DNA of 64,000 bases, taken from IMG/VR virus record IMGVR_UViG_3300017934_000005, positions 32,676 to 96,675 of that record; one strand, written 5' to 3'. Source of the DNA: a virus. Position 1 is the first letter of the stretch; each line of letters begins with the position of its first letter. Shown in pieces: positions 13,790 through 58,887 of this stretch. Below the pieces are notes generated by a model. It did not search any database, was not told where the DNA came from, and saw only the letters and a list, made by a program, of their open reading frames with translations. The position numbers and the translations under genes were made by a program.

Positions 13790-14120
13790 GAGCCGGTACT
13801 CCCATTAGCTTCTTCCACTTATACGGGTGCTTATGGTGGATGTCGGCCGCTTCGTCGGGTCTTCCCCTCCACGGTCACGCTTCCCGGCTCCAGATGGGCT
13901 CACGTGAGCCCAGGTGCACCACATCTATTTATACAGCGACTCATCAGGAGTCAACTGTGTTCGGCACCATTCTGGCCGGCCTGATGCCCGGCTAGATGCC
14001 GCCTTTTGCCGACTATTGACCCCACGTCTGGTCCATTCGGTCGGCATAGATTTTAGAGCCGAATCATCGTTCGGCTCAACTCAAGAATGGCGGCGAGGGG
14101 CGTCTCCGTTGGACCCCTAC
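13790..14120 (-). ncRNA. Multi-stem structured RNA region (unknown family)
   Basis: No credible ORF. Stems: GAGCCGG/CCGGCTC, GGGCTCACGTGAGCCC palindrome, and CGCCATTCT/AGAATGGTG enclosing GAGCCGAA/TTCGGCTC, TGCCGAC/GTCGGCA and GCCGG/CCGGC hairpins. Confidence 0.5.
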
Positions 14121-14165
14121 TTTAATCCGTGACGAACAATAACGAACACAGAACCACGTTAATAG

Positions 14166-14294
14166 CGCCGATGCTGGGAGTCGAACCCAGATTCCCGCTT
14201 TACAGGAGCGGTGTCTTTCCAGAGAGCCTTTTATAAGCGCCGTCTACACGGCTTACCCTTCGCTTTGCGCAGGCTCTACTTAGACCACATCGAT
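14166..14294 (-). tRNA. tRNA-like gene (Thr-TGT-like) with 55-nt structured insertion in the D-loop
   Basis: Acceptor ATCGATG/CATCGGC, D-stem GTCT/AGAC, anticodon arm CCGCT-CCTGTAA-AGCGG, T-arm CTGGG-TTCGACT-CCCAG. Insertion 14223-14277 is closed by AGAGCCT/AGGCTCT. No encoded CCA; C at position 33. Confidence 0.75.
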
Positions 14295-14300
14295 TACCGG

Positions 14301-14442
14301 TAGGAGCCGAGGCACATTATGTGTCCTCTTTGGCGACGATCCCAGGTGCCAAGGCCGGCAGCACCGACTCTTCACGTCACCCGGACGATTATTCCTCAGC
14401 TTGGTCGGCTTCGGCTTATCGTCCCATCCTATATAGCTCCTA
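14301..14442 (-). ncRNA. Multi-stem structured RNA between the two tRNA-like genes
   Basis: Closing stem TAGGAGC/GCTCCTA enclosing GGACGAT/ATCGTCC, GGTGC/GCACC and GAGG-CAC/GTG-CCTC stems. Confidence 0.5.
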
Positions 14443-14446
14443 AATC

Positions 14447-14618
14447 GCGTCCTGGTCGGGGGTTCAACCCGCATCTCCGGTACTAGTATGCTGATTTAGA
14501 AGTTCAGCGTCTATGACCAGAATCTTTTTGTTGAGATGAATTGTTCGCGGCCCTCTACAGGGCTTACCCTTCCGCTTTTCATCTCTCAAGAGCGCAAGGC
14601 TCTTTAGACGACAGGAAT
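14447..14618 (-). ncRNA. Degenerate tRNA-like RNA (Arg-TCT-like loop) with ~93-nt expanded D-loop
   Basis: TCCTG/CAGGA acceptor, GTCT/AGAC D-stem, GCTGA-ACTTCTAAA-TCAGC arm, long variable region, CGGG-TTGAACC-CCCG T-arm. The D-loop holds a GAGATGAA/TTCATCTC stem capped by the same module as in the neighbouring tRNA-like gene. Confidence 0.6.
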
Positions 14619-14623
14619 ATCGT

Positions 14624-14872
14624 TTACAGCGTAAACTTTGGCGTAGCCTTGGCTTGCTGCGGCTTCAGAGCCATCTCAAGAGCATCGATTTCCTCGCGCA
14701 GACGAGCCACGATCTTTTCCACGTGTTCTGAAAGCGGTTTGTGATGCGCAAGCTTGCCAATAAGTTGAATACTGGCAATAGCACGAGACGTGCGAGCCTG
14801 AGCCAACTGAATGAATTTTTGTTGTTTTTCGCTGATAGCGATTTCAGTAGGTGATGCGTTTCCTGGTTTCAT
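14624..14872 (-). CDS. Small helical hypothetical phage protein
   Basis: GGAGG RBS; first gene after promoter at 14890-14918. Confidence 0.6.
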   Translation of the reverse strand: MKPGNASPTEIAISEKQQKFIQLAQARTSRAIASIQLIGKLAHHKPLSEHVEKIVARLREEIDALEMALKPQQAKATPKFTL

Positions 14873-14889
14873 CTATCCTCCACATAAAC

Positions 14890-14918
14890 AAAATACCAAA
14901 TCTCTCGCAGGTTGTCAA
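14890..14918 (-). promoter_or_regulatory. Sigma70-type promoter
   Basis: TTGACA-17 bp-TATTTT, TGG before -10. Confidence 0.75.
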
Positions 14919-17487: not shown

Positions 17488-18090
17488 TCATTCACCTTTT
17501 CCTTCCGCATCTTTCTCGAAAGTCTTCTTGAACAGAGTTTTCGTAGCTTGGTGATAAACTACAATTCCTTCGGGCTGCATAAACCCTGGAGCAGTCACAC
17601 TCCCTCCCAGGCGTAATCCATTCATCGCGGCTTCAATAGCCGAGGTTTCGAATAAACCTTCATAAAGAATGGGCACGACTCCACAGTAGGCTGGTCGTTG
17701 GTCTCGACCATCCCGCCAGCGATTCACGTTGAAGAGACTGAATCTCTTTTCGCTGAGACCATACCGACGCTGAATTCCGAGACCCCACCACTCCCCGAAA
17801 TGATGCCCAGGTCCGAGTTGGAGAAGTTCGTCTCGATGTTCGTGAGCCCACTTGGAAAAACCATAGTTGTCATCGGAAGGAGTAATCCAGCGGGTCCGTG
17901 AGCCTGTGAGAAAGAGACCTGCATCCCCGTTTTCCTCGCTGCCAATATAGATGCTCGCATTGGTTCCATCGATCTTCTTCGTGATCGTACAGCCGCGACT
18001 TAGCCTCCCGATCTTCGGCATTGGCTTAAACTCCGGTAGTGGCGGAGTACCAGAATTACACTCTGGAGTACCACAAAAATATGTCGTCAT
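17488..18090 (-). CDS. ATP-dependent RNA ligase (Rnl2-like adenylation domain)
   Basis: KIDGTN (motif I), GSR, FGEWWG, FSLFN, PEGIVV, terminal KK. Confidence 0.85.
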   Translation of the reverse strand: MTTYFCGTPECNSGTPPLPEFKPMPKIGRLSRGCTITKKIDGTNASIYIGSEENGDAGLFLTGSRTRWITPSDDNYGFSKWAHEHRDELLQLGPGHHFGEWWGLGIQRRYGLSEKRFSLFNVNRWRDGRDQRPAYCGVVPILYEGLFETSAIEAAMNGLRLGGSVTAPGFMQPEGIVVYHQATKTLFKKTFEKDAEGKGE

Positions 18091-18091
18091 G

Positions 18092-18817
18092 TTAGTCTAA
18101 GCTCCCGTCTGCAGTTCCTAGCTGCTTGTAAGACTCGATTCCCAACGCTTTCGGACAACGACAATTTGGCCCACAAATGTGATTTAACAACCGGAGCCGA
18201 CGACGTTCAGCTTTTTCGACTTCTAAAGCAAGTTCTTCTTGGAACGCAAGTCTCGCCGCGACTGGACCGCGTGCCTGGTACTTATCTGGATCGGCAATGA
18301 ACTCCTCCAATTCGACCGGCTTGTAATCGGTGTACTCCACAGCAAACAAACGTTGCCACGGATTATAAAGCTTGCCGGTTCGAGTAAACCGCTCGGTTTC
18401 TGGTTCGTTCTTATGGAAACCGTGCCAGATGTTGTGAAGGTGACCGTGAATATTCAGATCACATCCGCCTGGTAGTGACTTCGCCGGCTTGTGCGTGAAC
18501 CAAATGTGCCGGAAGATCATGGCATCGCAAGCGAAGTCAAATCCGTTCTGCATCCACCAGGTACAGTTATGGTGCCAATCATGGTTGCCACGAATCAACA
18601 TCTTCCGGCCTGGAAGCGAAGGATAGATCGCCTTCCATCCCGCTGGCGGGCCAATAAAAACGTCGCCGGCACAGATAACTAAGTCTTGAGGCTGAACCAC
18701 GGTCTGCCAATTGTGAACGATCAGGTCCGTAAAATTCCGGGGCCGATCACAATAGGTCTCGATCTTGCTGTGATTCAGGTGTGGATCGCTAATTATCCAA
18801 GTTTTCGGTGCGCTCAT
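18092..18817 (-). CDS. Calcineurin-like metallophosphoesterase
   Basis: SDPHLNH, GD, RGNHD, THKP, HGHLH. Confidence 0.9.
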   Translation of the reverse strand: MSAPKTWIISDPHLNHSKIETYCDRPRNFTDLIVHNWQTVVQPQDLVICAGDVFIGPPAGWKAIYPSLPGRKMLIRGNHDWHHNCTWWMQNGFDFACDAMIFRHIWFTHKPAKSLPGGCDLNIHGHLHNIWHGFHKNEPETERFTRTGKLYNPWQRLFAVEYTDYKPVELEEFIADPDKYQARGPVAARLAFQEELALEVEKAERRRLRLLNHICGPNCRCPKALGIESYKQLGTADGSLD

Positions 18818-19321
18818 TAGTATCCTATCGGTGACCGGTCTCCATACTCCAAATTCTCGCTTAGGTATCCTCTCCAGACCGTAAGTTTGTCGCCGGGTTG
18901 TGGGGTTGCAGATGCCAGAAACCAGGTCTTAGCAGCTTCCACGACATCTTTCTGAGACAAAAATCGCGTGGTCTCATAACCCCAATCTGAGTTGAAGTAA
19001 GTAAGTTCAACGAAATCTGATTGACCGGGACCCACGCGCTCAGGAGGAATTTTAATCGTAGCGTAGTAATGTTCGGCAATATAAATGCCAACATAGGTTG
19101 TGATGCGAAGTTGAAATTTGCTCATGCATTTCGCTTCTTCAATGTAACTTGAACGATTGAGTGCCAGGGAAATCCTGCTTTGTCTTCTTCGTGCCAATAC
19201 ATGCCCTGTGACTGAACGTCCCGGAGCCAATCCATCACGATAGTTGCATCTGGTCGAGTATCGTGTTCACCGATTTCAACTTCAAAATTGTAAGCGCCCT
19301 CTGTTTCAACGTAGAGATGTC

Positions 19322-19552
19322 TCACCAGGATATTCCCTCTCGATACCACTTCCAGAAATTACGTCCTTGGACCACAAATAAAACCGATCCTATGACAATA
19401 ATAGACCAAGTCTTGTGTTGAATCCCAACTATCGTGGTGAAAAATTCAGCCAGGAAAGCCAGGAACGGACCAAGCAATCGCTTGTTACCCATGAGCCAGA
19501 GGCCGGCAAGCAGTAAAACTGTCGCCGAAAGTTGAACGACAAAATCAATCAT
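19322..19552 (-). CDS. PnuC-like small membrane protein
   Basis: Three TM helices ending in FWKW. Confidence 0.5.
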   Translation of the reverse strand: MIDFVVQLSATVLLLAGLWLMGNKRLLGPFLAFLAEFFTTIVGIQHKTWSIIVIGSVLFVVQGRNFWKWYREGISW

Positions 19553-20474
19553 GCGCCCTTCTTCAAAACTTTGACTACATCGATAAGAATACCACCAATG
19601 ATAAGAAGTAATATGACCGTAAGAATCGGATGATTTGATGCGAAATTAAGTATAGTGCTCATGCGCCCTCCGCGACCGAATGTGTGTTGTGGTGACCGAA
19701 ATCAACCAGGTGATGTGAGTCCTCCTCCCGGGCCGGAATCTCGGCCATGACTACGCCTGGACAAAGTGGTTCAATCATTTGTTCAATGATTGTACCTGGT
19801 GTAGTTTTTTCCATTAAAGCGTTGTATGCCTGTTGCCCATAGTCAAGAGTATCTTCAAGATTTTTGATTTTTAACTCCATTTCCCTCATAGCAATATCGT
19901 CTGCTTGTTTAAGAACGCCCAATGCTTCGATTTGAGCGTCGTAGGCACCCAGAAGAACCCTGATGCGATCCGGCGTCACGTAGAGACCGGCCGCAAGATT
20001 GAGACGAAGTTGGCGAATGCTCTCCTCAGGAGTCTCGACACGGACTTCCTTGACTTCTCTGACCTGACTCGCTCTCGCTGTTTTGCTTAACTCAGCCATT
20101 GGTTCATGTTCCTTTCCAGGATTTGAATCCATTCCTCTCGAATCTCGTCTTGAATCACTGGGTCAATACCATCCCACTCATCACCTATACCACCGCGATC
20201 ACTCAGGTCCGCGATGATTTCATCCACTGCAGCTTCATATCGCTCTCTCATATCTTTGTCATGTCTTCGGTCTTGGATTTTTCCTCGGCAATCTCAAAGA
20301 CTTTGTGAGTGAATTCAGCCAGGGAGTCATCAATTTCTTCCTGATATTGTTGATAGTACACAGTCCACCAGTGTAACCAGATATTCTTCATGATTTTCTC
20401 CCAATCAGCTTGAGAGATAGTGTCAAATTCAGCCGGTTTATCCGGTACATTGATTGCAGCTTCAATCGCTATCT

Positions 20475-20815
20475 TCATTTGGGACCCCACGTGAAACAAC
20501 GTTTGTAAACTTCTCTGGCTTTTTGACTTCGGCGCTTTCCAAAATAAGGCATTAGCAGAGTTAAAACCTTCACAATGTCAGATTTTTTCTTTGTACGCCA
20601 GCGAAGTGACGGGCTGTGTTTACGATTCTTGGGTTTCCATAAACGAAGATGCCCGACTTTCACAATCCTTAAAAACCGTCTGACCACATCGCGGTCTTTC
20701 ATTCCTAATGCGAGCCCGGAGTCTTGCATTTGCCAGCTATGAAAATACAACCTTCACCCTCGAACAGGCCAGCAGCCCAAGCAATTTCTCTTGTTCTAAT
20801 CTTTGTACGGATCAT
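20475..20815 (-). pseudogene. Frameshifted LAGLIDADG homing endonuclease
   Basis: ATG at 20815 gives MIRTKIRTREIAWAAGLFEGEGCI..., which stops at ~20706. The continuation LALGMKDRDVVRRF...LMPYFGKRR is in the -1 frame. Confidence 0.75.
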
Positions 20816-21983
20816 ACTCCTCACTACCGGCCATTGCCACACCTAAGGGTTTCAAGGTATGGAGAATTCTGATCGTGGGTCCCATTTCACGGAGTACATC
20901 AGGCAATCGCTTGTAGCAATCTGGGCTTTCATCCAGACCGGAACCGCGAAGCTCAATACCGGATTGGGTCAGCCAAGAATTCATCATAGCATTCGTTACT
21001 CTGCCCGGCCTGGTTATCTCTCCAGTTTTCCGATTTCGTTTGCCCGCCGCTTCCATTCGACCCATCACCCTCCCTGCACCATGGACGGTAGAGTAAAAAG
21101 TGCGTTCGGACTCAAAACCGGCTTCGGCTCCTTCGATGATAACTGCCGACTCAGCCATAGTGCCTCCAACAAATCCTCTCTGTCCGGGAAACGCAGGAGT
21201 CGCACCTTTTCGTACAACATACAGGTCTTTGCCATTGTGTTTTTCGAGCCAGGAAAAATTGTGATGGTTGTGGACCTGTTCAAGAATCTGTCCTCCTATG
21301 ATATTAGCCACTTTCTGGCAGACCCAATCACGGCCAGCGTAGGCGTACCATCCCGCCAACTGCATAGCTTCCTGATACTGCACCCCCAGATCAGAGCAAG
21401 CATCCAAAACCAAGGGCTCGACATCCATACCGTCTTTCGCGCCTCCAGCCTTCAGAAACCAAGTCGCGGTCTTGTGTCCAAGTCCACGGGAACCAAAGTG
21501 AACACCTACCCAGATGCGCTCAAGTTCATCCTCGAAGATGTCAACGTAGTGATTCCCCGAGCCCACGGTACCAAGCTGGTCCTGGGCTAAGTCCTTCAGG
21601 TCTTTGTTGGCTTCAAGATGCCAAAGATTCGCGTCATCGAACATAGGGTGATCAATGACACTAGCATTTTTCCGGCCAATGCCGAAACTGATTTCTTTCC
21701 AAACAGAATCCATAAGCCGGCTAATATTTTCACGCACGTACTGAACAGGAACATCGAGACGAACAGCTTTGTTACCGCAGCCGATGTCATACCCGACGCC
21801 AGATGGAGAGATAGCATTTTCATAAGCTAGAACGCCTCCTATTGGAACCGCATAGCCTTTGTGGTGATCGGCCATCAGTGCTGCGCCCACGACTCGAGGA
21901 TCACGGGCGCATGTTATGATCTGAACCAGTGCGCCGTGATCCATAGGCCAACCATAGACCGGGATGTTCTCAACGATGTGCAT
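20796..21983 (-). CDS. rtcB: RtcB-family RNA ligase
   Basis: MADHHKGY, VGYDIGCG, GTVGSGNHY, HFGSRG, HNHHN, RKGAT, HGAGR, DESPDCYK. Confidence 0.95.
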   Translation of the reverse strand: MHIVENIPVYGWPMDHGALVQIITCARDPRVVGAALMADHHKGYAVPIGGVLAYENAISPSGVGYDIGCGNKAVRLDVPVQYVRENISRLMDSVWKEISFGIGRKNASVIDHPMFDDANLWHLEANKDLKDLAQDQLGTVGSGNHYVDIFEDELERIWVGVHFGSRGLGHKTATWFLKAGGAKDGMDVEPLVLDACSDLGVQYQEAMQLAGWYAYAGRDWVCQKVANIIGGQILEQVHNHHNFSWLEKHNGKDLYVVRKGATPAFPGQRGFVGGTMAESAVIIEGAEAGFESERTFYSTVHGAGRVMGRMEAAGKRNRKTGEITRPGRVTNAMMNSWLTQSGIELRGSGLDESPDCYKRLPDVLREMGPTIRILHTLKPLGVAMAGSEEYDPYKD

Positions 21984-42668: not shown

Positions 42669-43187
42669 CTATCCACAGTTGATCCATGGATAAGTCTGTT
42701 CTAGTACTGGTCTGTTAAGATAAGCTTTTAGAAAATCTGGCAACAGATCAACATCGCCGCGCTTTTCAAATAAGCCTAAAACAACATTACATCTGTGGCA
42801 TAACAAACCGCGAATACACTTCCCGCAAGACCGATATCCTTGACAACAAGCGTGGTCATGATCTATTCGAGGAATATTAAAGGAATCTCCAGAGCCTCTG
42901 TCAGAAAAAATCAAACCACAGGGACACCGTCCGTGTTGCCTAATTAGAAACTCATCAAATTGACGCTGCGAAATATGATATGTCCACTCTAAAGTGTATT
43001 CAGGTTTCGCAAGTCTCCGTAACCGCGCTTTTTCTCTTGTTTTTTCTCGATGGCCTTCATTCCACTTCCGATTTCTTATGCGATCACACTCTAAACACGA
43101 ACGCTTATTCCGCAGCAGCCCAGTCCAGTGAACATTCTCACCACTTAACGCATGTCCTCGTTTACAGTGTTCTCTTAATTTCCCCAT
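42669..43187 (-). CDS. Endonuclease VII-like HNH homing endonuclease
   Basis: HCKRGH Zn finger; IDHDHACC...IRGLLCHRCN. Confidence 0.85.
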   Translation of the reverse strand: MGKLREHCKRGHALSGENVHWTGLLRNKRSCLECDRIRNRKWNEGHREKTREKARLRRLAKPEYTLEWTYHISQRQFDEFLIRQHGRCPCGLIFSDRGSGDSFNIPRIDHDHACCQGYRSCGKCIRGLLCHRCNVVLGLFEKRGDVDLLPDFLKAYLNRPVLEQTYPWINCG

Positions 43188-49098: not shown

Positions 49099-49785
49099 TT
49101 AAAACGACAGGTTGTGAATTCTGCCGAGAGTGAACCCTGTCACAACTCCGGCAATGAACCACTTGAATTTGCTCTTGCGAGCCTGAGCTTTCACCGTAAC
49201 TATTTCTTGATTTGCTGCATCCAACTTAGCCTGGATCGCATTCACATCACTCTTGTGAGATTGTTTCTCAGAATCAAGAGCTTTTGCATCGTTAGCGATT
49301 ATTACGGTATCGTTGGCAATGACGGTCTGATCGGCAGCTAGTTCCTGCCTGAGGATAGCCGGCTCTTCAAGTGCTTGAGCCACGGAAACGGCTTCGGATT
49401 GGTCCATCTGATAAGCACTTCCGACCACAGTAACGGAACCGCCAGGGGCCAGAGTTTGAATACGCGAGGCAAGATCATTCGGAGCAAGGGTAGCATCTTT
49501 TTTCTTATTTGCTTGAAGCTGCGAAATAAGGCTGGAGACTAAAACTGTTTGCTGTTGATTCGCGGTCTGCAACTGAGTATTTTGTATAGCCAGTTGAGCC
49601 ATTTGATCCGTTATCTGTTTCTGAAACTGGGCGTTTGAAGAATCTTTTTGATCCGCCAGAGTCTTTAAGTCTTCATACCTCTGCTCTGCTCGGCTGGCTA
49701 TCCGAGACTCAATCGCGTAAGTGAGGCCCAAGGCGAGAAAAATAGTTGCAATGTAGAGCGTGATATGATGGCGATCCAAAGTCAT
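49099..49785 (-). CDS. Membrane-anchored coiled-coil protein (spanin-like)
   Basis: N-terminal TM, long Gln/Ala coiled coil, C-terminal hydrophobic segment. Confidence 0.5.
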   Translation of the reverse strand: MTLDRHHITLYIATIFLALGLTYAIESRIASRAEQRYEDLKTLADQKDSSNAQFQKQITDQMAQLAIQNTQLQTANQQQTVLVSSLISQLQANKKKDATLAPNDLASRIQTLAPGGSVTVVGSAYQMDQSEAVSVAQALEEPAILRQELAADQTVIANDTVIIANDAKALDSEKQSHKSDVNAIQAKLDAANQEIVTVKAQARKSKFKWFIAGVVTGFTLGRIHNLSF

Positions 49786-50183
49786 TGTTCTTCTCTCTTA
49801 ATATAGGTTCTAATAGGAACGCGATTTTTCTGCGCTTTTAATAACTTCTTTCGGGCCTTCCGCTGCACCTTGGTTCCTACTCGGTGTGGTAGACCATAGT
49901 GAGGATGTCCCAGGGCTTGAGTCGCGGGAGGATTCTTAGCATATCTGAGGATATTCTCCAAACGTTCTATTGTGACCCAGTCCGGGATAAGTTTATTACA
50001 ACGGAAACACAGTAGACCACGGACGAGACCTGTCTTATGGTCATGATCAGTGAGAGTACAATGATCAGGAAGGGGTTCTCCACAACCGGGGCAGAGACCA
50101 TTCTGAAATCTGTAGATTAGTATCCACTCGTCTTGCGTCAGGAGGAACGTGAGACGTAGATAATTCGCGTTCGGAACCTTCAT
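49782..50183 (-). CDS. Endonuclease VII-like protein
   Basis: FQNGLCPGC...DHDHKTGLVRGLLCFRCN. Confidence 0.85.
   Translation of the reverse strand: MKVPNANYLRLTFLLTQDEWILIYRFQNGLCPGCGEPLPDHCTLTDHDHKTGLVRGLLCFRCNKLIPDWVTIERLENILRYAKNPPATQALGHPHYGLPHRVGTKVQRKARKKLLKAQKNRVPIRTYIKREEQ
49799..49825 (-). promoter_or_regulatory. Phage-specific promoter-like motif, copy 2
   Basis: ATCGCGTTCCTATTAGAACCTATATTA, 13 nt before spanin-like ATG. Confidence 0.65.
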
Positions 50184-51785: not shown

Positions 51786-51923
51786 TCACCCGGATTCCCG
51801 TAGCCTCTTCAATTCTTTGCGTTTATTTTGTCGTACTCTACGCTTCGCCGCCTTCGTTTTCGGCTTCGGGTGATAAGACAAAACTACATCTGTAATTCGG
51901 TCGAGTTCGGGCGGTACTTTCAC
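51786..51923 (-). CDS. 45-aa basic peptide translationally coupled to transposase (not in ORF track)
   Basis: GTG overlaps the transposase TGA; MKVPPELDRITDVVLSYHPKPKTKAAKRR... Confidence 0.55.
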   Translation of the reverse strand: MKVPPELDRITDVVLSYHPKPKTKAAKRRVRQNKRKELKRLRESG

Positions 51924-52837
51924 TTCGTCAACTCCGCATACGTGATTCTCTTTCCTACCACAGCGTCAACAAAACTGTTAATACGCTCCGTGGTGTGCCG
52001 CTGCACTCGGCCAGCATTCAAGCGAAAGGTAAACTCGTCTACGTATCGGCCCATATGCTTGCGACTGGCATGATGATAGACGCCATGCATTCCCCGTTTC
52101 ATCACGGCCCAAACGGACTCGATGGAATTCGTGTGAGCCGTACCACGAACATATTCGCCAGCGACGTGCTTGACTGCTTCATGGCCGTATCCTTCACCAC
52201 GGATGCGAGCATAGCCGGGATTCTCGTCTGTGATGATTACGGAACCAGGGAGCACATTATCCTTGATGGCTGTACGAAGGGCTAAGCCGCCAATGCTATC
52301 CGTAACCTTGGCGACGGTGTTACCACCACGTTCTCGGATACCGATAACGGCGACCTTCTCAGACCGTTCCCTCGGTTTGTTGATTCTGTCGTACATGTGC
52401 CGATTGCTCTCTTCCCCGCCAAAGAACGTCTCATCGGCTTCCACGGTGCCCTTGAGCATCTCAATTTTCGTGCCGCAAGCCTCTCGCAGCCTGTGTAGGA
52501 CGAACCAAGCCGATTTCTGCGTTATGCCTATCTCTTTCCCTAACTGGAGCGAAGAGATGCCCTTGCGTGCTGTAACAAGCAAGTACATGGCATATAGCCA
52601 CTTGTGCAAAGGAACATGGCTCCGCTCGAAGATAGTTCCTGTTCTCACTGTAAAATCCAGTTTGCAGGCGTTGCAACGATAGAAACCATCTTTGCGCTGA
52701 GTGATTCTCTCGCCCGATTTACACTCTGGACAAATAGAACCGTTAGGCCAAAGGCGTCCTTCCAAGTATTTGCGGGCTGTTTCTTCATCTGGAAATAACT
52801 CGAACAGTTTGAAAGTGCTGATTGTACTTCGGCTCAT
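51920..52837 (-). CDS. IS1595-family DDE transposase
   Basis: Zn ribbon CPEC...CNAC, TGTIFE, KGISS HTH, VEADETFFGG, ITDE, HTNSIESVW, YVDEFTFR. Confidence 0.95.
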   Translation of the reverse strand: MSRSTISTFKLFELFPDEETARKYLEGRLWPNGSICPECKSGERITQRKDGFYRCNACKLDFTVRTGTIFERSHVPLHKWLYAMYLLVTARKGISSLQLGKEIGITQKSAWFVLHRLREACGTKIEMLKGTVEADETFFGGEESNRHMYDRINKPRERSEKVAVIGIRERGGNTVAKVTDSIGGLALRTAIKDNVLPGSVIITDENPGYARIRGEGYGHEAVKHVAGEYVRGTAHTNSIESVWAVMKRGMHGVYHHASRKHMGRYVDEFTFRLNAGRVQRHTTERINSFVDAVVGKRITYAELTK

Positions 52838-58446: not shown

Positions 58447-58887
58447 TCATTCATCATTTCCATTATCCAGAAAAACTACTCTGCATAATGGTCGATTTTT
58501 CAAGTATTTCTGCACCAGGACGTTCTGCAAAGCAGGCACTTTTTCTAACATCGGGAGAAGCCAGCCGTTACAAGGACCGCAAAGTAAACCACGGACTGCG
58601 TCAGGTCCTCGTTCTCCGTGAACGTGATCGACACCAAGTTTATGCTTGAAAAATTTCTCAGCGATGCCGCAAAGAGCGCAGCAACCTTTTTGTAAGAAGT
58701 ACAAATACAAATACTGAATAAGCGTGATCCCAAACTTGTACTTTAATTTATCGTTGCGATCCGACAACTGCACACAAATTTTGCAATAAAATTGCAAACC
58801 ATCTTTGCGACTTTTATTCGCGCCGAACCGATCACGGGATTTTCTTTTCTGACACATACTGCATATCTTTGTTTTTCTGAAAATCAT
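58447..58887 (-). CDS. Endonuclease VII-like HNH homing endonuclease
   Basis: CSMC...CKIC, KFGIT, QKGCCALC, VDHVH, VRGLLCGPCN. Confidence 0.85.
   Translation of the reverse strand: MIFRKTKICSMCQKRKSRDRFGANKSRKDGLQFYCKICVQLSDRNDKLKYKFGITLIQYLYLYFLQKGCCALCGIAEKFFKHKLGVDHVHGERGPDAVRGLLCGPCNGWLLPMLEKVPALQNVLVQKYLKNRPLCRVVFLDNGNDE

What the first reader, a model, noticed from the sequence alone, without database searches (positions are those of the whole stretch)
14166..14618. Two tRNA scaffolds carrying the same covarying 29-nt RNA module grafted into the D-loop
Seen (- strand): both RNAs have an acceptor stem, a GTCT/AGAC D-stem, an anticodon arm and a T-arm, but their D-loops are expanded to 65 and 93 nt. 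Each expansion is a long stem capped by an identical architecture: AGCG-AAGGGTAAG-CCGT-GTAG-ACGG-CGCT (14236-14264) and GCGG-AAGGGTAAG-CCCT-GTAG-AGGG-CCGC (14547-14575). The 9-nt bulge and GTAG loop are invariant, while both stems change compensatorily. Removing 14223-14277 restores a normal 10-nt D-loop (AAGTCTGGAA). Neither RNA encodes CCA. One has C33 and a 1-72 mismatch; the other has a degenerate T-loop. Inference: either these are small D-loop introns excised and religated by the phage RtcB/Rnl ligases, or they are non-translational tRNA mimics that use the tRNA fold for processing and stability while displaying a protein-binding aptamer, for example as decoys for anticodon nucleases or other defence proteins.
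Basis: partly seen in the sequence, partly recalled or inferred. Interest (0 to 1): 0.88.

Follow-up and report, generated by a model that had tools for sequence, protein, structure and literature searches.

The report
Phage tRNA-shaped RNAs with extra arm
An uncultured soil phage carries tRNA-shaped RNAs with an extra hairpin built into the D-loop, tipped by a conserved 29-base RNA knob that unrelated phages also place on ordinary hairpins. The knob is a new, portable RNA signal of unknown partner, and probably not a tRNA intron.

Summary

RNA B (14166-14294, minus strand) is a true cloverleaf with anticodon UGU. A 55-nt hairpin sits in its D-loop. ARAGORN and Rfam miss it as it stands, but ARAGORN calls tRNA-Thr once the hairpin is removed in silico.

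Two metagenome homologues carry the same arm at the same place: L157 (Thr-CGU) and L147 (Gln-UUG). Across the three, 12 of 33 base pairs change compensatorily. RNA A (14448-14618) is only loosely tRNA-like.

The 29-nt tip is a lower stem, the bulge AAGGGUAAG, the stem CCNU/ANGG and the loop GUAG. It is a real motif with no Rfam family. I found 15 distinct instances in soil phages and Acidobacteriota MAGs, always on the transcribed strand.

Most instances are not in cloverleaf tRNAs. They sit on plain intergenic hairpins, on spacer RNAs of tRNA arrays, or in a structured RNA before terL.

Two complete phage genomes carry the module with no tRNA, RtcB or RNA ligase. No protein is shared by all carriers.

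Best reading: a portable docking knob displayed on stable RNA frames, here on a tRNA body. The intron reading is not excluded but is weakened. This scan has noted other phage tRNA-frame RNAs with inserts elsewhere, though not this module.

The parts
14166..14294 (-). RNA B: tRNA-Thr(UGU)-shaped RNA with a five-arm fold. It has A1.C72, U2.G71, U8, the D-stem GUCU/AGAC, C33, the T-loop UUCGACU and G73, and no encoded CCA.
   Evidence: Fold. ARAGORN calls tRNA-Thr after hairpin removal. Weak Rfam tRNA hit at 18.2 bits. Consensus cloverleaf with L157 and L147, with 12 of 33 pairs compensatory.
14223..14277 (-). 55-nt hairpin arm of RNA B, inserted between D-loop positions about 17 and G18. It consists of the stem AGAGCCU/AGGCUCU, a 6x6 internal loop and the module.
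   Evidence: The homologous arms are 47 nt in L157 and 50 nt in L147, at the same position.
14236..14264 (-). Module copy B: AGCG-AAGGGUAAG-CCGU-GUAG-ACGG-CGCU.
   Evidence: Covariance model R1, 52.3 bits, E 1.6e-13. Alignment A1.
14448..14618 (-). RNA A: a diverged tRNA-like RNA. Its 5' part, UC-GUCU-AAAG, matches that of L157 and L147. It has a UCU anticodon-like loop, an 18-nt variable region, the T-loop-like UUGAACC and a mismatched acceptor stem. Its 93-nt D-region holds two hairpins.
   Evidence: ARAGORN does not call it under any deletion tried.
14547..14575 (-). Module copy A: GCGG-AAGGGUAAG-CCCU-GUAG-AGGG-CCGC.
   Evidence: R1, 47.4 bits, E 5.6e-12.
14299..14441 (-). Structured RNA packed between A and B. 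A 7-bp closing stem, AGGAGCU/GGCUCCU, is followed by A-CC, and then 4 nt (GGUA) separate it from B.
   Evidence: L157 and L147 have an analogous, larger tRNA-like RNA ending in A-CC-GGU directly before their arm-bearing tRNA.
14890..14918 (-). Promoter-like site, TTGACA-17-TATTTT with an upstream TG, ahead of an 82-aa ORF and the RNA island.
   Evidence: This is a consensus match only.
14624..14872 (-). 82-aa ORF with no known family, directly upstream of RNA A.

Best explanation
**What the RNAs are.** RNA B, and more loosely RNA A, belong to a small, undescribed family of phage tRNA-derived RNAs that carry an extra helical arm. The arm is built into the variable alpha region of the D-loop, between positions about 17 and G18. 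That region is solvent-exposed in the L-shaped fold, so the tRNA core can still form. The core features are retained: U8, A14, G18-G19, A21, the T-loop and four covarying stems.

**What the tip is.** The tip of the arm is a 29-nt knob. It has a free lower stem, a 9-nt bulge AAGGGUAAG, the 4-bp helix CCNU/ANGG and the loop GUAG. The knob is an autonomous, portable RNA signal. Unrelated soil phages put the same knob on plain intergenic hairpins next to ribosome-binding sites or U-runs, on spacer RNAs inside tRNA arrays, and in a structured RNA in front of terL.

**Proposed mechanism (inferred, not shown).**
1. The island is transcribed from the promoter-like site at 14918-14890 as one RNA.
2. 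The tRNA shape lets RNase P and 3'-end enzymes cut out stable units.
3. The arm presents the knob to a trans-acting partner.
4. That partner is most likely a conserved host factor, either a protein or a large RNA machine, because complete carrier genomes share no protein.

The arm is most likely retained in the mature RNA, not spliced out. Whether B still accepts threonine and decodes is open. I lean 60:40 towards a poor decoder or a non-decoder.
For: **Shown.**
- Cloverleaf plus arm is predicted for B alone and as the consensus of B, L157 and L147. Twelve of 33 pairs are compensatory, in the acceptor stem, anticodon stem, arm and module.
- Removing the arm gives ARAGORN tRNAs Thr-UGU, Gln-UUG and, at a relaxed threshold, Thr-CGU.
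- The module has 15 distinct instances, with 21 of 29 positions invariant or nearly so. The lower stem takes 10 different sequences. The third pair of the upper stem is G-C, C-G or U-A, and the second is U.G in L166.
- Every instance I could orient lies on the strand of the flanking genes or tRNAs.
- There is no Rfam family and no match in 50,697 GenBank phage records.
- G152 and G153 are complete genomes with terminal repeats. Each has one module, no tRNA, no RtcB and no PF09414 ligase.
- No protein is common to the carriers by BLASTP.
- The units are packed 4-7 nt apart, like a tRNA array.

**Inferred.** The partner is a host factor, the arm is retained in the mature RNA, and processing is by RNase P and RNase Z.
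Against: - No expression, processing or binding data exist, and the partner is unidentified.
- The 21 near-invariant bases are partly an ascertainment effect of my search patterns. Three relaxed scans of IMG/VR did find no variants.
- BLASTP would miss a remote shared protein.
- Several features are what a spliced, decoding tRNA would look like. B keeps an intact 7-nt anticodon loop. Its anticodon is missing from the phage's 20-tRNA array. The D-loop has a canonical length once the arm is removed.
- The family is tiny: three cloverleaf members plus A.
Confidence: 0.5

Rival explanations
1. D-loop intron. The arm is cut out of the precursor and the two tRNA parts are rejoined by the phage RtcB or Rnl2-like ligase, giving an ordinary tRNA-Thr of about 74 nt. 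The module would be the recognition handle for the cutting enzyme, or a functional RNA nested in the intron.
For: - Arm removal restores D-loops of 10-11 nt and ARAGORN-recognisable tRNAs.
- The phage array has no tRNA-Thr.
- RtcB (20796-21983), a PF09414 ligase (17488-18090) and a metallophosphoesterase (18092-18817) lie 3-8 kb away.
- Archaeal tRNA-Trp introns nest a box C/D RNA (PMC4090602), so an intron that carries a functional RNA has a precedent.
Against: - There is no bulge-helix-bulge motif. The two single-stranded stretches at the arm's base face each other as a 4x6 loop and are not staggered (inspection).
- No EndA-type endonuclease is found in the phage.
- At 47-55 nt the arm is far too small for a group I intron, and there is no Rfam hit.
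- The distance from the module to the arm's base varies from 9 to 14 nt, so the module cannot serve as a ruler.
- Most module instances are outside cloverleaf tRNAs, and two complete carrier genomes have no ligase and no tRNA.
- C33, the N1.C72 mismatch and the lack of CCA remain after any splicing.
Confidence: 0.17
2. Five-armed working tRNA. The arm stays in place, and the RNA is still charged and decodes. The arm and C33 would shield it from host tRNA-targeting nucleases, or would recruit a factor to it.
For: - All core tRNA features are kept, and the anticodon arm covaries.
- The anticodons UGU, CGU and UUG are ordinary phage-tRNA choices.
- A CCA-bearing array tRNA of the same phage (Ile-UAU) also has A1.C72, so this mismatch is tolerated there.
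Against: - U33 is replaced by C in both Thr members.
- CCA is not encoded, although all 20 array tRNAs encode it.
- A helix of about 15 bp at the elbow would probably collide with the ribosomal sites that contact the elbow (general knowledge, not tested).
- RNA A keeps the module while its tRNA features decay.
Confidence: 0.2
3. Decay. A small palindromic, possibly mobile, DNA element landed in two tRNA genes and inactivated them, so the RNAs have no function.
For: - The lower stem of B's arm, AGAGCCU/AGGCUCU, is identical to that of the plain hairpin in the unrelated phage G152 (L104). This hints at lateral spread of the whole hairpin.
- Endonuclease-VII-type homing nuclease genes occur in several carriers.
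- RNA A does look degenerate.
Against: - Three diverged homologues keep the arm at the same site, with compensatory changes in every tRNA stem and in the arm.
- The tertiary-contact nucleotides are conserved.
- The orientation always matches transcription.
- Only one or two copies occur per genome, unlike a proliferating repeat.
Confidence: 0.06

Closest known systems
Phage tRNA-like stable RNAs co-transcribed with tRNAs: T4 species 1 and 2 RNAs (rnaC, rnaD) and T5 RNA1
   Same: Both are non-canonical RNAs built on a tRNA frame. They are packed with tRNA-type units, are presumably released by tRNA-processing enzymes, and have no known function. This rests on my own knowledge and on leads from earlier notes of this scan.
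   Different: Here the anticodon arm is intact and the extra structure sits in the D-loop. The insert's tip is a sequence motif that also lives outside tRNA frames. No sequence similarity was tested.
YrlA-type bacterial and phage Y RNAs (Chen et al. 2014, PMC4201824)
   Same: Both are tRNA mimics encoded by bacteria and phages, often near RtcB, that combine a tRNA-like domain with a protein-binding module.
   Different: There is no TROVE/Ro60 gene in the phage and no Rfam YrlA hit. The arm order is normal, not permuted. The GNCGAAN0-1G Ro motif is not a conserved feature, because the lower stem varies freely. The L146 spacer RNA does have a permuted T-arm-then-module order.
Protein-spliced tRNA introns of archaea and eukaryotes, including the tRNA-Trp intron that nests a box C/D RNA (PMC4090602)
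   Same: A structured insert interrupts a tRNA gene, and an RtcB-type ligase is available.
   Different: There is no BHB motif and no EndA. The setting is a bacterial virus, and the module also stands alone elsewhere.
Long variable arm of class II tRNAs, and the engineered 'tRNA scaffold' for displaying RNA aptamers (Ponchon and Dardel 2007; own knowledge)
   Same: An extra helix projects from an otherwise normal L-shape. The tRNA body gives folding, processing and stability to a displayed RNA element.
   Different: The arm leaves from the D-loop, not from the variable region or the anticodon stem. It is natural and conserved, and the partner of its tip is unknown.

Membership tests
Canonical tRNA (Rfam RF00005) | Four-stem cloverleaf with conserved tertiary nucleotides (U8, A14, G18G19, A21, G53, T-loop UUCRANY, C61) | tested here: met
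   Met for RNA B: and inspection. RNA A does not meet it.
Canonical tRNA (Rfam RF00005) | Detected by tRNA finders or reaches the Rfam gathering score | tested here: not met
   ARAGORN finds 0 genes in the window. The Rfam tRNA hit scores 18.2 bits against a cut-off of 29. ARAGORN detects it only after the arm is deleted in silico.
Canonical tRNA (Rfam RF00005) | U33, a paired 1-72 position and a CCA end (encoded or added); aminoacylation | tested here: inconclusive
   B has C33, A1.C72 and no encoded CCA. CCA addition and charging cannot be tested in silico.
Protein-spliced tRNA intron (archaeal or eukaryal type) | Bulge-helix-bulge motif at the splice sites | tested here: not met
   The base of the arm is a symmetric-position 4x6 internal loop, not two 3-nt bulges staggered by 4 bp. 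The motif definition is from PMC4090602.
Protein-spliced tRNA intron (archaeal or eukaryal type) | EndA/Sen-type splicing endonuclease available | tested here: not met
   PF01974 is absent from the phage genome. The host genome is unknown.
Group I intron in bacterial or phage tRNA | Catalytic core of about 200 nt or more, inserted in the anticodon loop | tested here: not met
   The insert is 55 nt and lies in the D-loop. There is no Rfam intron hit.
YrlA / Y RNA | Adjacent Ro60 (TROVE) gene and a match to the Rfam YrlA models | tested here: not met
   PF05731 is absent. There is no Rfam hit even at E up to 10.
RNA anti-CRISPR (solitary CRISPR repeat mimic) | The same sequence occurs as tandem repeats in host CRISPR arrays | tested here: not met
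   The strict pattern hits only 3 contigs among one genome each of 185,579 species, one copy each, with no array.
Intrinsic terminator hairpin (for the non-tRNA instances) | GC-rich stem followed by a U-run | tested here: inconclusive
   Clear U-runs follow the hairpin in L104, L152 and L159. The other plain hairpins have weak U-runs or none (by eye).

The most novel reading that the evidence does not exclude
A natural five-armed tRNA. In this reading the phage tRNA keeps a conserved, factor-binding arm in its D-loop and still works in translation. Alternatively, the arm is removed by a splicing route in bacteria that is independent of both BHB motifs and group I chemistry and that uses phage or host RtcB/Rnl ligases. 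Either would be a new chapter in tRNA biology.
Probability: 0.3. Interest if true: 0.9.

Novelty: new variant of a known kind. Interest (0 to 1): 0.7.

Why it matters
The work defines a new structured RNA motif. It has no Rfam family and is not in GenBank phages, yet it has clean covariation and an unusually rigid 21-nt core shared by phages that have no proteins in common. That pattern points to an unknown RNA-recognition event in Acidobacteriota-type soil hosts.

It also shows that phages can build a foreign RNA signal into the D-loop of an otherwise intact tRNA and maintain it over evolutionary time. This site was not known to accept an arm.

If the arm is retained, this is a natural counterpart of the laboratory 'tRNA scaffold'. 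It would also be a new class of tRNA mimic that standard tRNA finders miss. If the arm is excised, it is a new kind of bacterial tRNA splicing.

Both outcomes can be tested directly with one northern blot or one small-RNA library.

Tried and rejected
- **Rfam.** Searches at gathering and permissive thresholds on the window, the rest of the genome and related loci gave only a weak tRNA and a weak mascRNA hit on B's 3' half.
- **Ro/Y RNA.** There is no TROVE gene and the Ro motif is not conserved.
- **CRISPR-repeat mimic or mimic of a conserved host RNA.** The strict pattern is almost absent from one genome each of 185,579 species. It was found in only 2 of 151 genomes of the Ca. Acidoferrum family, one copy each.
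- **Resemblance to the RNase P specificity domain (GGUAAGGGUGAAA).** I looked at the host-type RNase P alignment. The likeness is only a shared GUAAG/AAGGGU word, not an equivalent structure.
- **Antisense partner for the bulge in the window.** None above chance.
- **Partner protein.** All-against-all BLASTP of carrier genomes and flanks found nothing common. Only Endonuclease-VII-type homing nucleases were shared by some carriers. Neighbouring small ORFs show no common family.
- **Relatives through the RNA ligase.** Sixty-two IMG/VR loci (0.96 Mb) contain no module. The four weak model hits are coding-sequence coincidences such as A-K-G-K.
- **Relaxed patterns for the bulge or loop.** Only chance hits in coding DNA.
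- **Literature.** Searches for the motif and for D-loop arms in phage tRNAs found nothing relevant.
- As a result, the roughly 100-kb relatives revealed by the exonuclease search could not be fetched.

Full report
**1. What is there**

The window is the right-hand 64 kb of a 96.7-kb IMG/VR virus record, estimated 94% complete. On the minus strand, genes are interrupted by a gene-free stretch of about 800 nt (13818-14624). It lies behind a promoter-like site (14918-14890) and an 82-aa ORF. ARAGORN and Rfam at curated thresholds find nothing in the window.

RNA B (14166-14294) folds on its own as a cloverleaf whose D-loop contains a 55-nt hairpin. It has:
- U8, the D-stem GUCU/AGAC, and A14 and A15 before the hairpin, with GG-A-A after it;
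- a 5-bp anticodon stem with the loop CCUGUAA;
- a 4-nt variable region;
- the T-arm CUGGG-UUCGACU-CCCAG;
- a 7-position acceptor stem with A1.C72 and U2.G71, then G73, and no CCA.

Deleting 14223-14277 in silico makes ARAGORN call tRNA-Thr(tgt).

RNA A (14448-14618) shares the 5' signature UC-GUCU-AAAG and has an anticodon-like loop CUUCUAA. However, it has a mismatched acceptor stem, an 18-nt variable region and the T-loop UUGAACC. It is not called a tRNA under any deletion tried, and its minimum-energy fold is not a cloverleaf. I therefore treat B as a true tRNA body and A as a diverged relative.

**2. The module is real and portable**

Both arms end in the same 29-nt architecture. I scanned public collections with a pattern that fixed the bulge, the loop and three of the four pairs of the upper stem. 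It left the third upper pair and the whole lower stem free.

| Collection | Loci matched |
|---|---|
| IMG/VR | 6 |
| GTDB genomes | 3 |
| JGI metagenomes | 16 |

Twenty-two of these 25 loci have both stems complementary. They collapse to 12 distinct sequences besides the two in the window. A covariance-model search of 151 genomes of the Ca. Acidoferrum family added one more (L166), in which the upper stem is CUGU/ACGG.

The lower stem takes ten different sequences. The third upper pair is G-C, C-G or U-A. Five of 8 pairs covary, and 98.9% of cells pair against 72% after shuffling and under 57% when the partner is slid. This count is partly circular, because I kept only paired instances. The 22-of-25 figure is the unbiased one.

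Relaxed scans found no variants of the bulge or the loop in IMG/VR. The module is absent from 50,697 GenBank phage records and from Rfam. Every instance I could orient lies on the strand of its flanking genes or tRNAs, which argues for an RNA-level role.

**3. Contexts**

- **(i) D-loop of a cloverleaf.** Window B (Thr-UGU), L157 (Thr-CGU, also with C33) and L147 (Gln-UUG), plus window A. The arms are 55, 47 and 50 nt long. All leave four D-loop nucleotides before the arm and N2-3-GG-N-A after it. RNAalifold on the three gives a cloverleaf plus arm, with 12 of 33 pairs compensatory. Acceptor positions 3-6 and anticodon-stem positions 3-5 are among them. ARAGORN calls L147 tRNA-Gln and, at a relaxed threshold, L157 tRNA-Thr once the arm is removed.
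- **(ii) Spacer RNAs inside phage tRNA arrays.** In L146 the RNA lies between two tRNA-Leu genes. It has a closing stem, a T-arm with the loop UUCGACU, and then the module hairpin. In L145/L148/L158 it lies between tRNA-Leu and tRNA-Arg.
- **(iii) Plain intergenic hairpins.** L104, L152 and L159 are followed by U-runs. L142, L156, L159, L147 and L157 end 20-40 nt before a ribosome-binding site and a start codon. In the complete phage G153 the hairpin lies in the head-gene block, between the portal gene (plus a 166-aa gene) and a 373-aa gene followed by the major head protein gene.
- **(iv) A structured RNA of about 170 nt directly before terL.** L058/G154.

**4. What the module does not depend on**

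G152 (35 kb) and G153 (42.5 kb) have terminal repeats and are rated complete. Each has one module, no tRNA, no RtcB and no PF09414 ligase. BLASTP finds no protein common to the carriers. Only Endonuclease-VII-type homing nucleases are shared, and only by some.

L147 is a genuine relative of this phage, with seven syntenic proteins at 35-72% identity. Its arm-bearing tRNA, however, sits next to genes whose homologues here lie 30 kb away. The unit therefore moves as a cassette.

**5. Interpretation**

The decay or mobile-repeat reading is unlikely. The stems covary, the tertiary nucleotides are conserved, the copy number is one or two, and the strand is fixed.

The intron reading has real points in its favour:
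- the D-loop has a canonical length after removal of the arm;
- the phage's 20-tRNA array, in which every tRNA encodes CCA, lacks Thr;
- RtcB, an Rnl2-like ligase and a phosphoesterase lie 3-8 kb away.

Against it:
- there is no BHB motif (definition from PMC4090602);
- there is no EndA;
- there is no fixed distance between the module and the arm's base;
- the module stands alone in most contexts.

I therefore favour a retained arm that displays a docking knob, with the tRNA body supplying fold, processing and stability. It also parallels other phage tRNA-frame 'carrier' RNAs noted by this scan on other genomes (unverified notes), and the long-known T4 species 1/2 RNAs (own knowledge).

Because the carriers share no protein, the partner is more likely a host component. 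This is an inference. The sequence conservation of the paired CC/GG and U-A positions suggests direct readout of the helix, or base triples with the bulge. That too is an inference.

Whether B still decodes is open:
- C33 in both Thr members, the N1.C72 mismatch and the lack of CCA argue against it;
- the intact, covarying anticodon arm argues for it;
- the CCA-bearing tRNA-Ile(UAU) of the same phage also has A1.C72, so that mismatch is no sign of decay.

**6. Novelty**

No paper in the library mentions the motif or an arm in the D-loop of a phage tRNA. I class the finding as a new variant of a known kind, namely phage tRNA-like stable RNAs and structured RNA motifs.

**7. Limits**

- There are no expression data.
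- The family is small.
- The metagenome and genome scans were single-shot and pattern-bound.

Noticed in passing
window 14299-14441 (-); L157:166-336 (-); L147:1-100 (+): The RNA just upstream of each arm-bearing tRNA has a 7-bp acceptor-like closing stem followed by A-CC and then GGU(A), that is, CCA lacking its last A. The L157 and L147 versions are about 170 nt with a T-arm, and they covary with each other (for example AUGA/UCAU against ACGA/UCGU). They may be a second class of expanded tRNA-like RNA.
   Followed up: partly
G000:291-4705 (L126), outside the window: This is a 20-tRNA array in which every tRNA encodes CCA. It has no Thr, Leu, Pro, His, Cys or Tyr. tRNA-Ile(UAU) has a long variable arm and an A1.C72 mismatch like that of RNA B.
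   Followed up: partly
window 13834-14125 (-): More structured RNA lies downstream of B. It includes a CUGAUGA word near 13945 that recalls a hammerhead core, but Rfam gives no ribozyme hit even at E up to 10.
   Followed up: partly
window 51920-52837 (-); 42669-43187, 49782-50183, 58447-58887 (-): An IS1595-family transposase gene lies inside the phage, together with three Endonuclease-VII-type (homing-nuclease-like) genes. The region homologous to L147's neighbourhood lies next to them, which suggests rearrangement.
   Followed up: no
L146:750-1705 (-): A metagenome contig carries an array of six tRNA-Leu genes plus a tRNA-Tyr gene. It also has two non-tRNA spacer RNAs, one of which has a permuted T-arm-then-module layout reminiscent of YrlA.
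   Followed up: partly
L058:3162-3316 (+) (also G154): A structured RNA of about 155-170 nt, closed by a long stem of about 20 bp, lies between an 84-aa gene and the large terminase gene. The module is one branch of it (z-score -3.1).
   Followed up: partly
window 17488-21983 (-): An RNA-repair set is present: RtcB, a PF09414 RNA ligase and an adjacent metallophosphoesterase. The ligase has relatives at up to 64% identity in 62 IMG/VR loci, none of which carries the module.
   Followed up: yes
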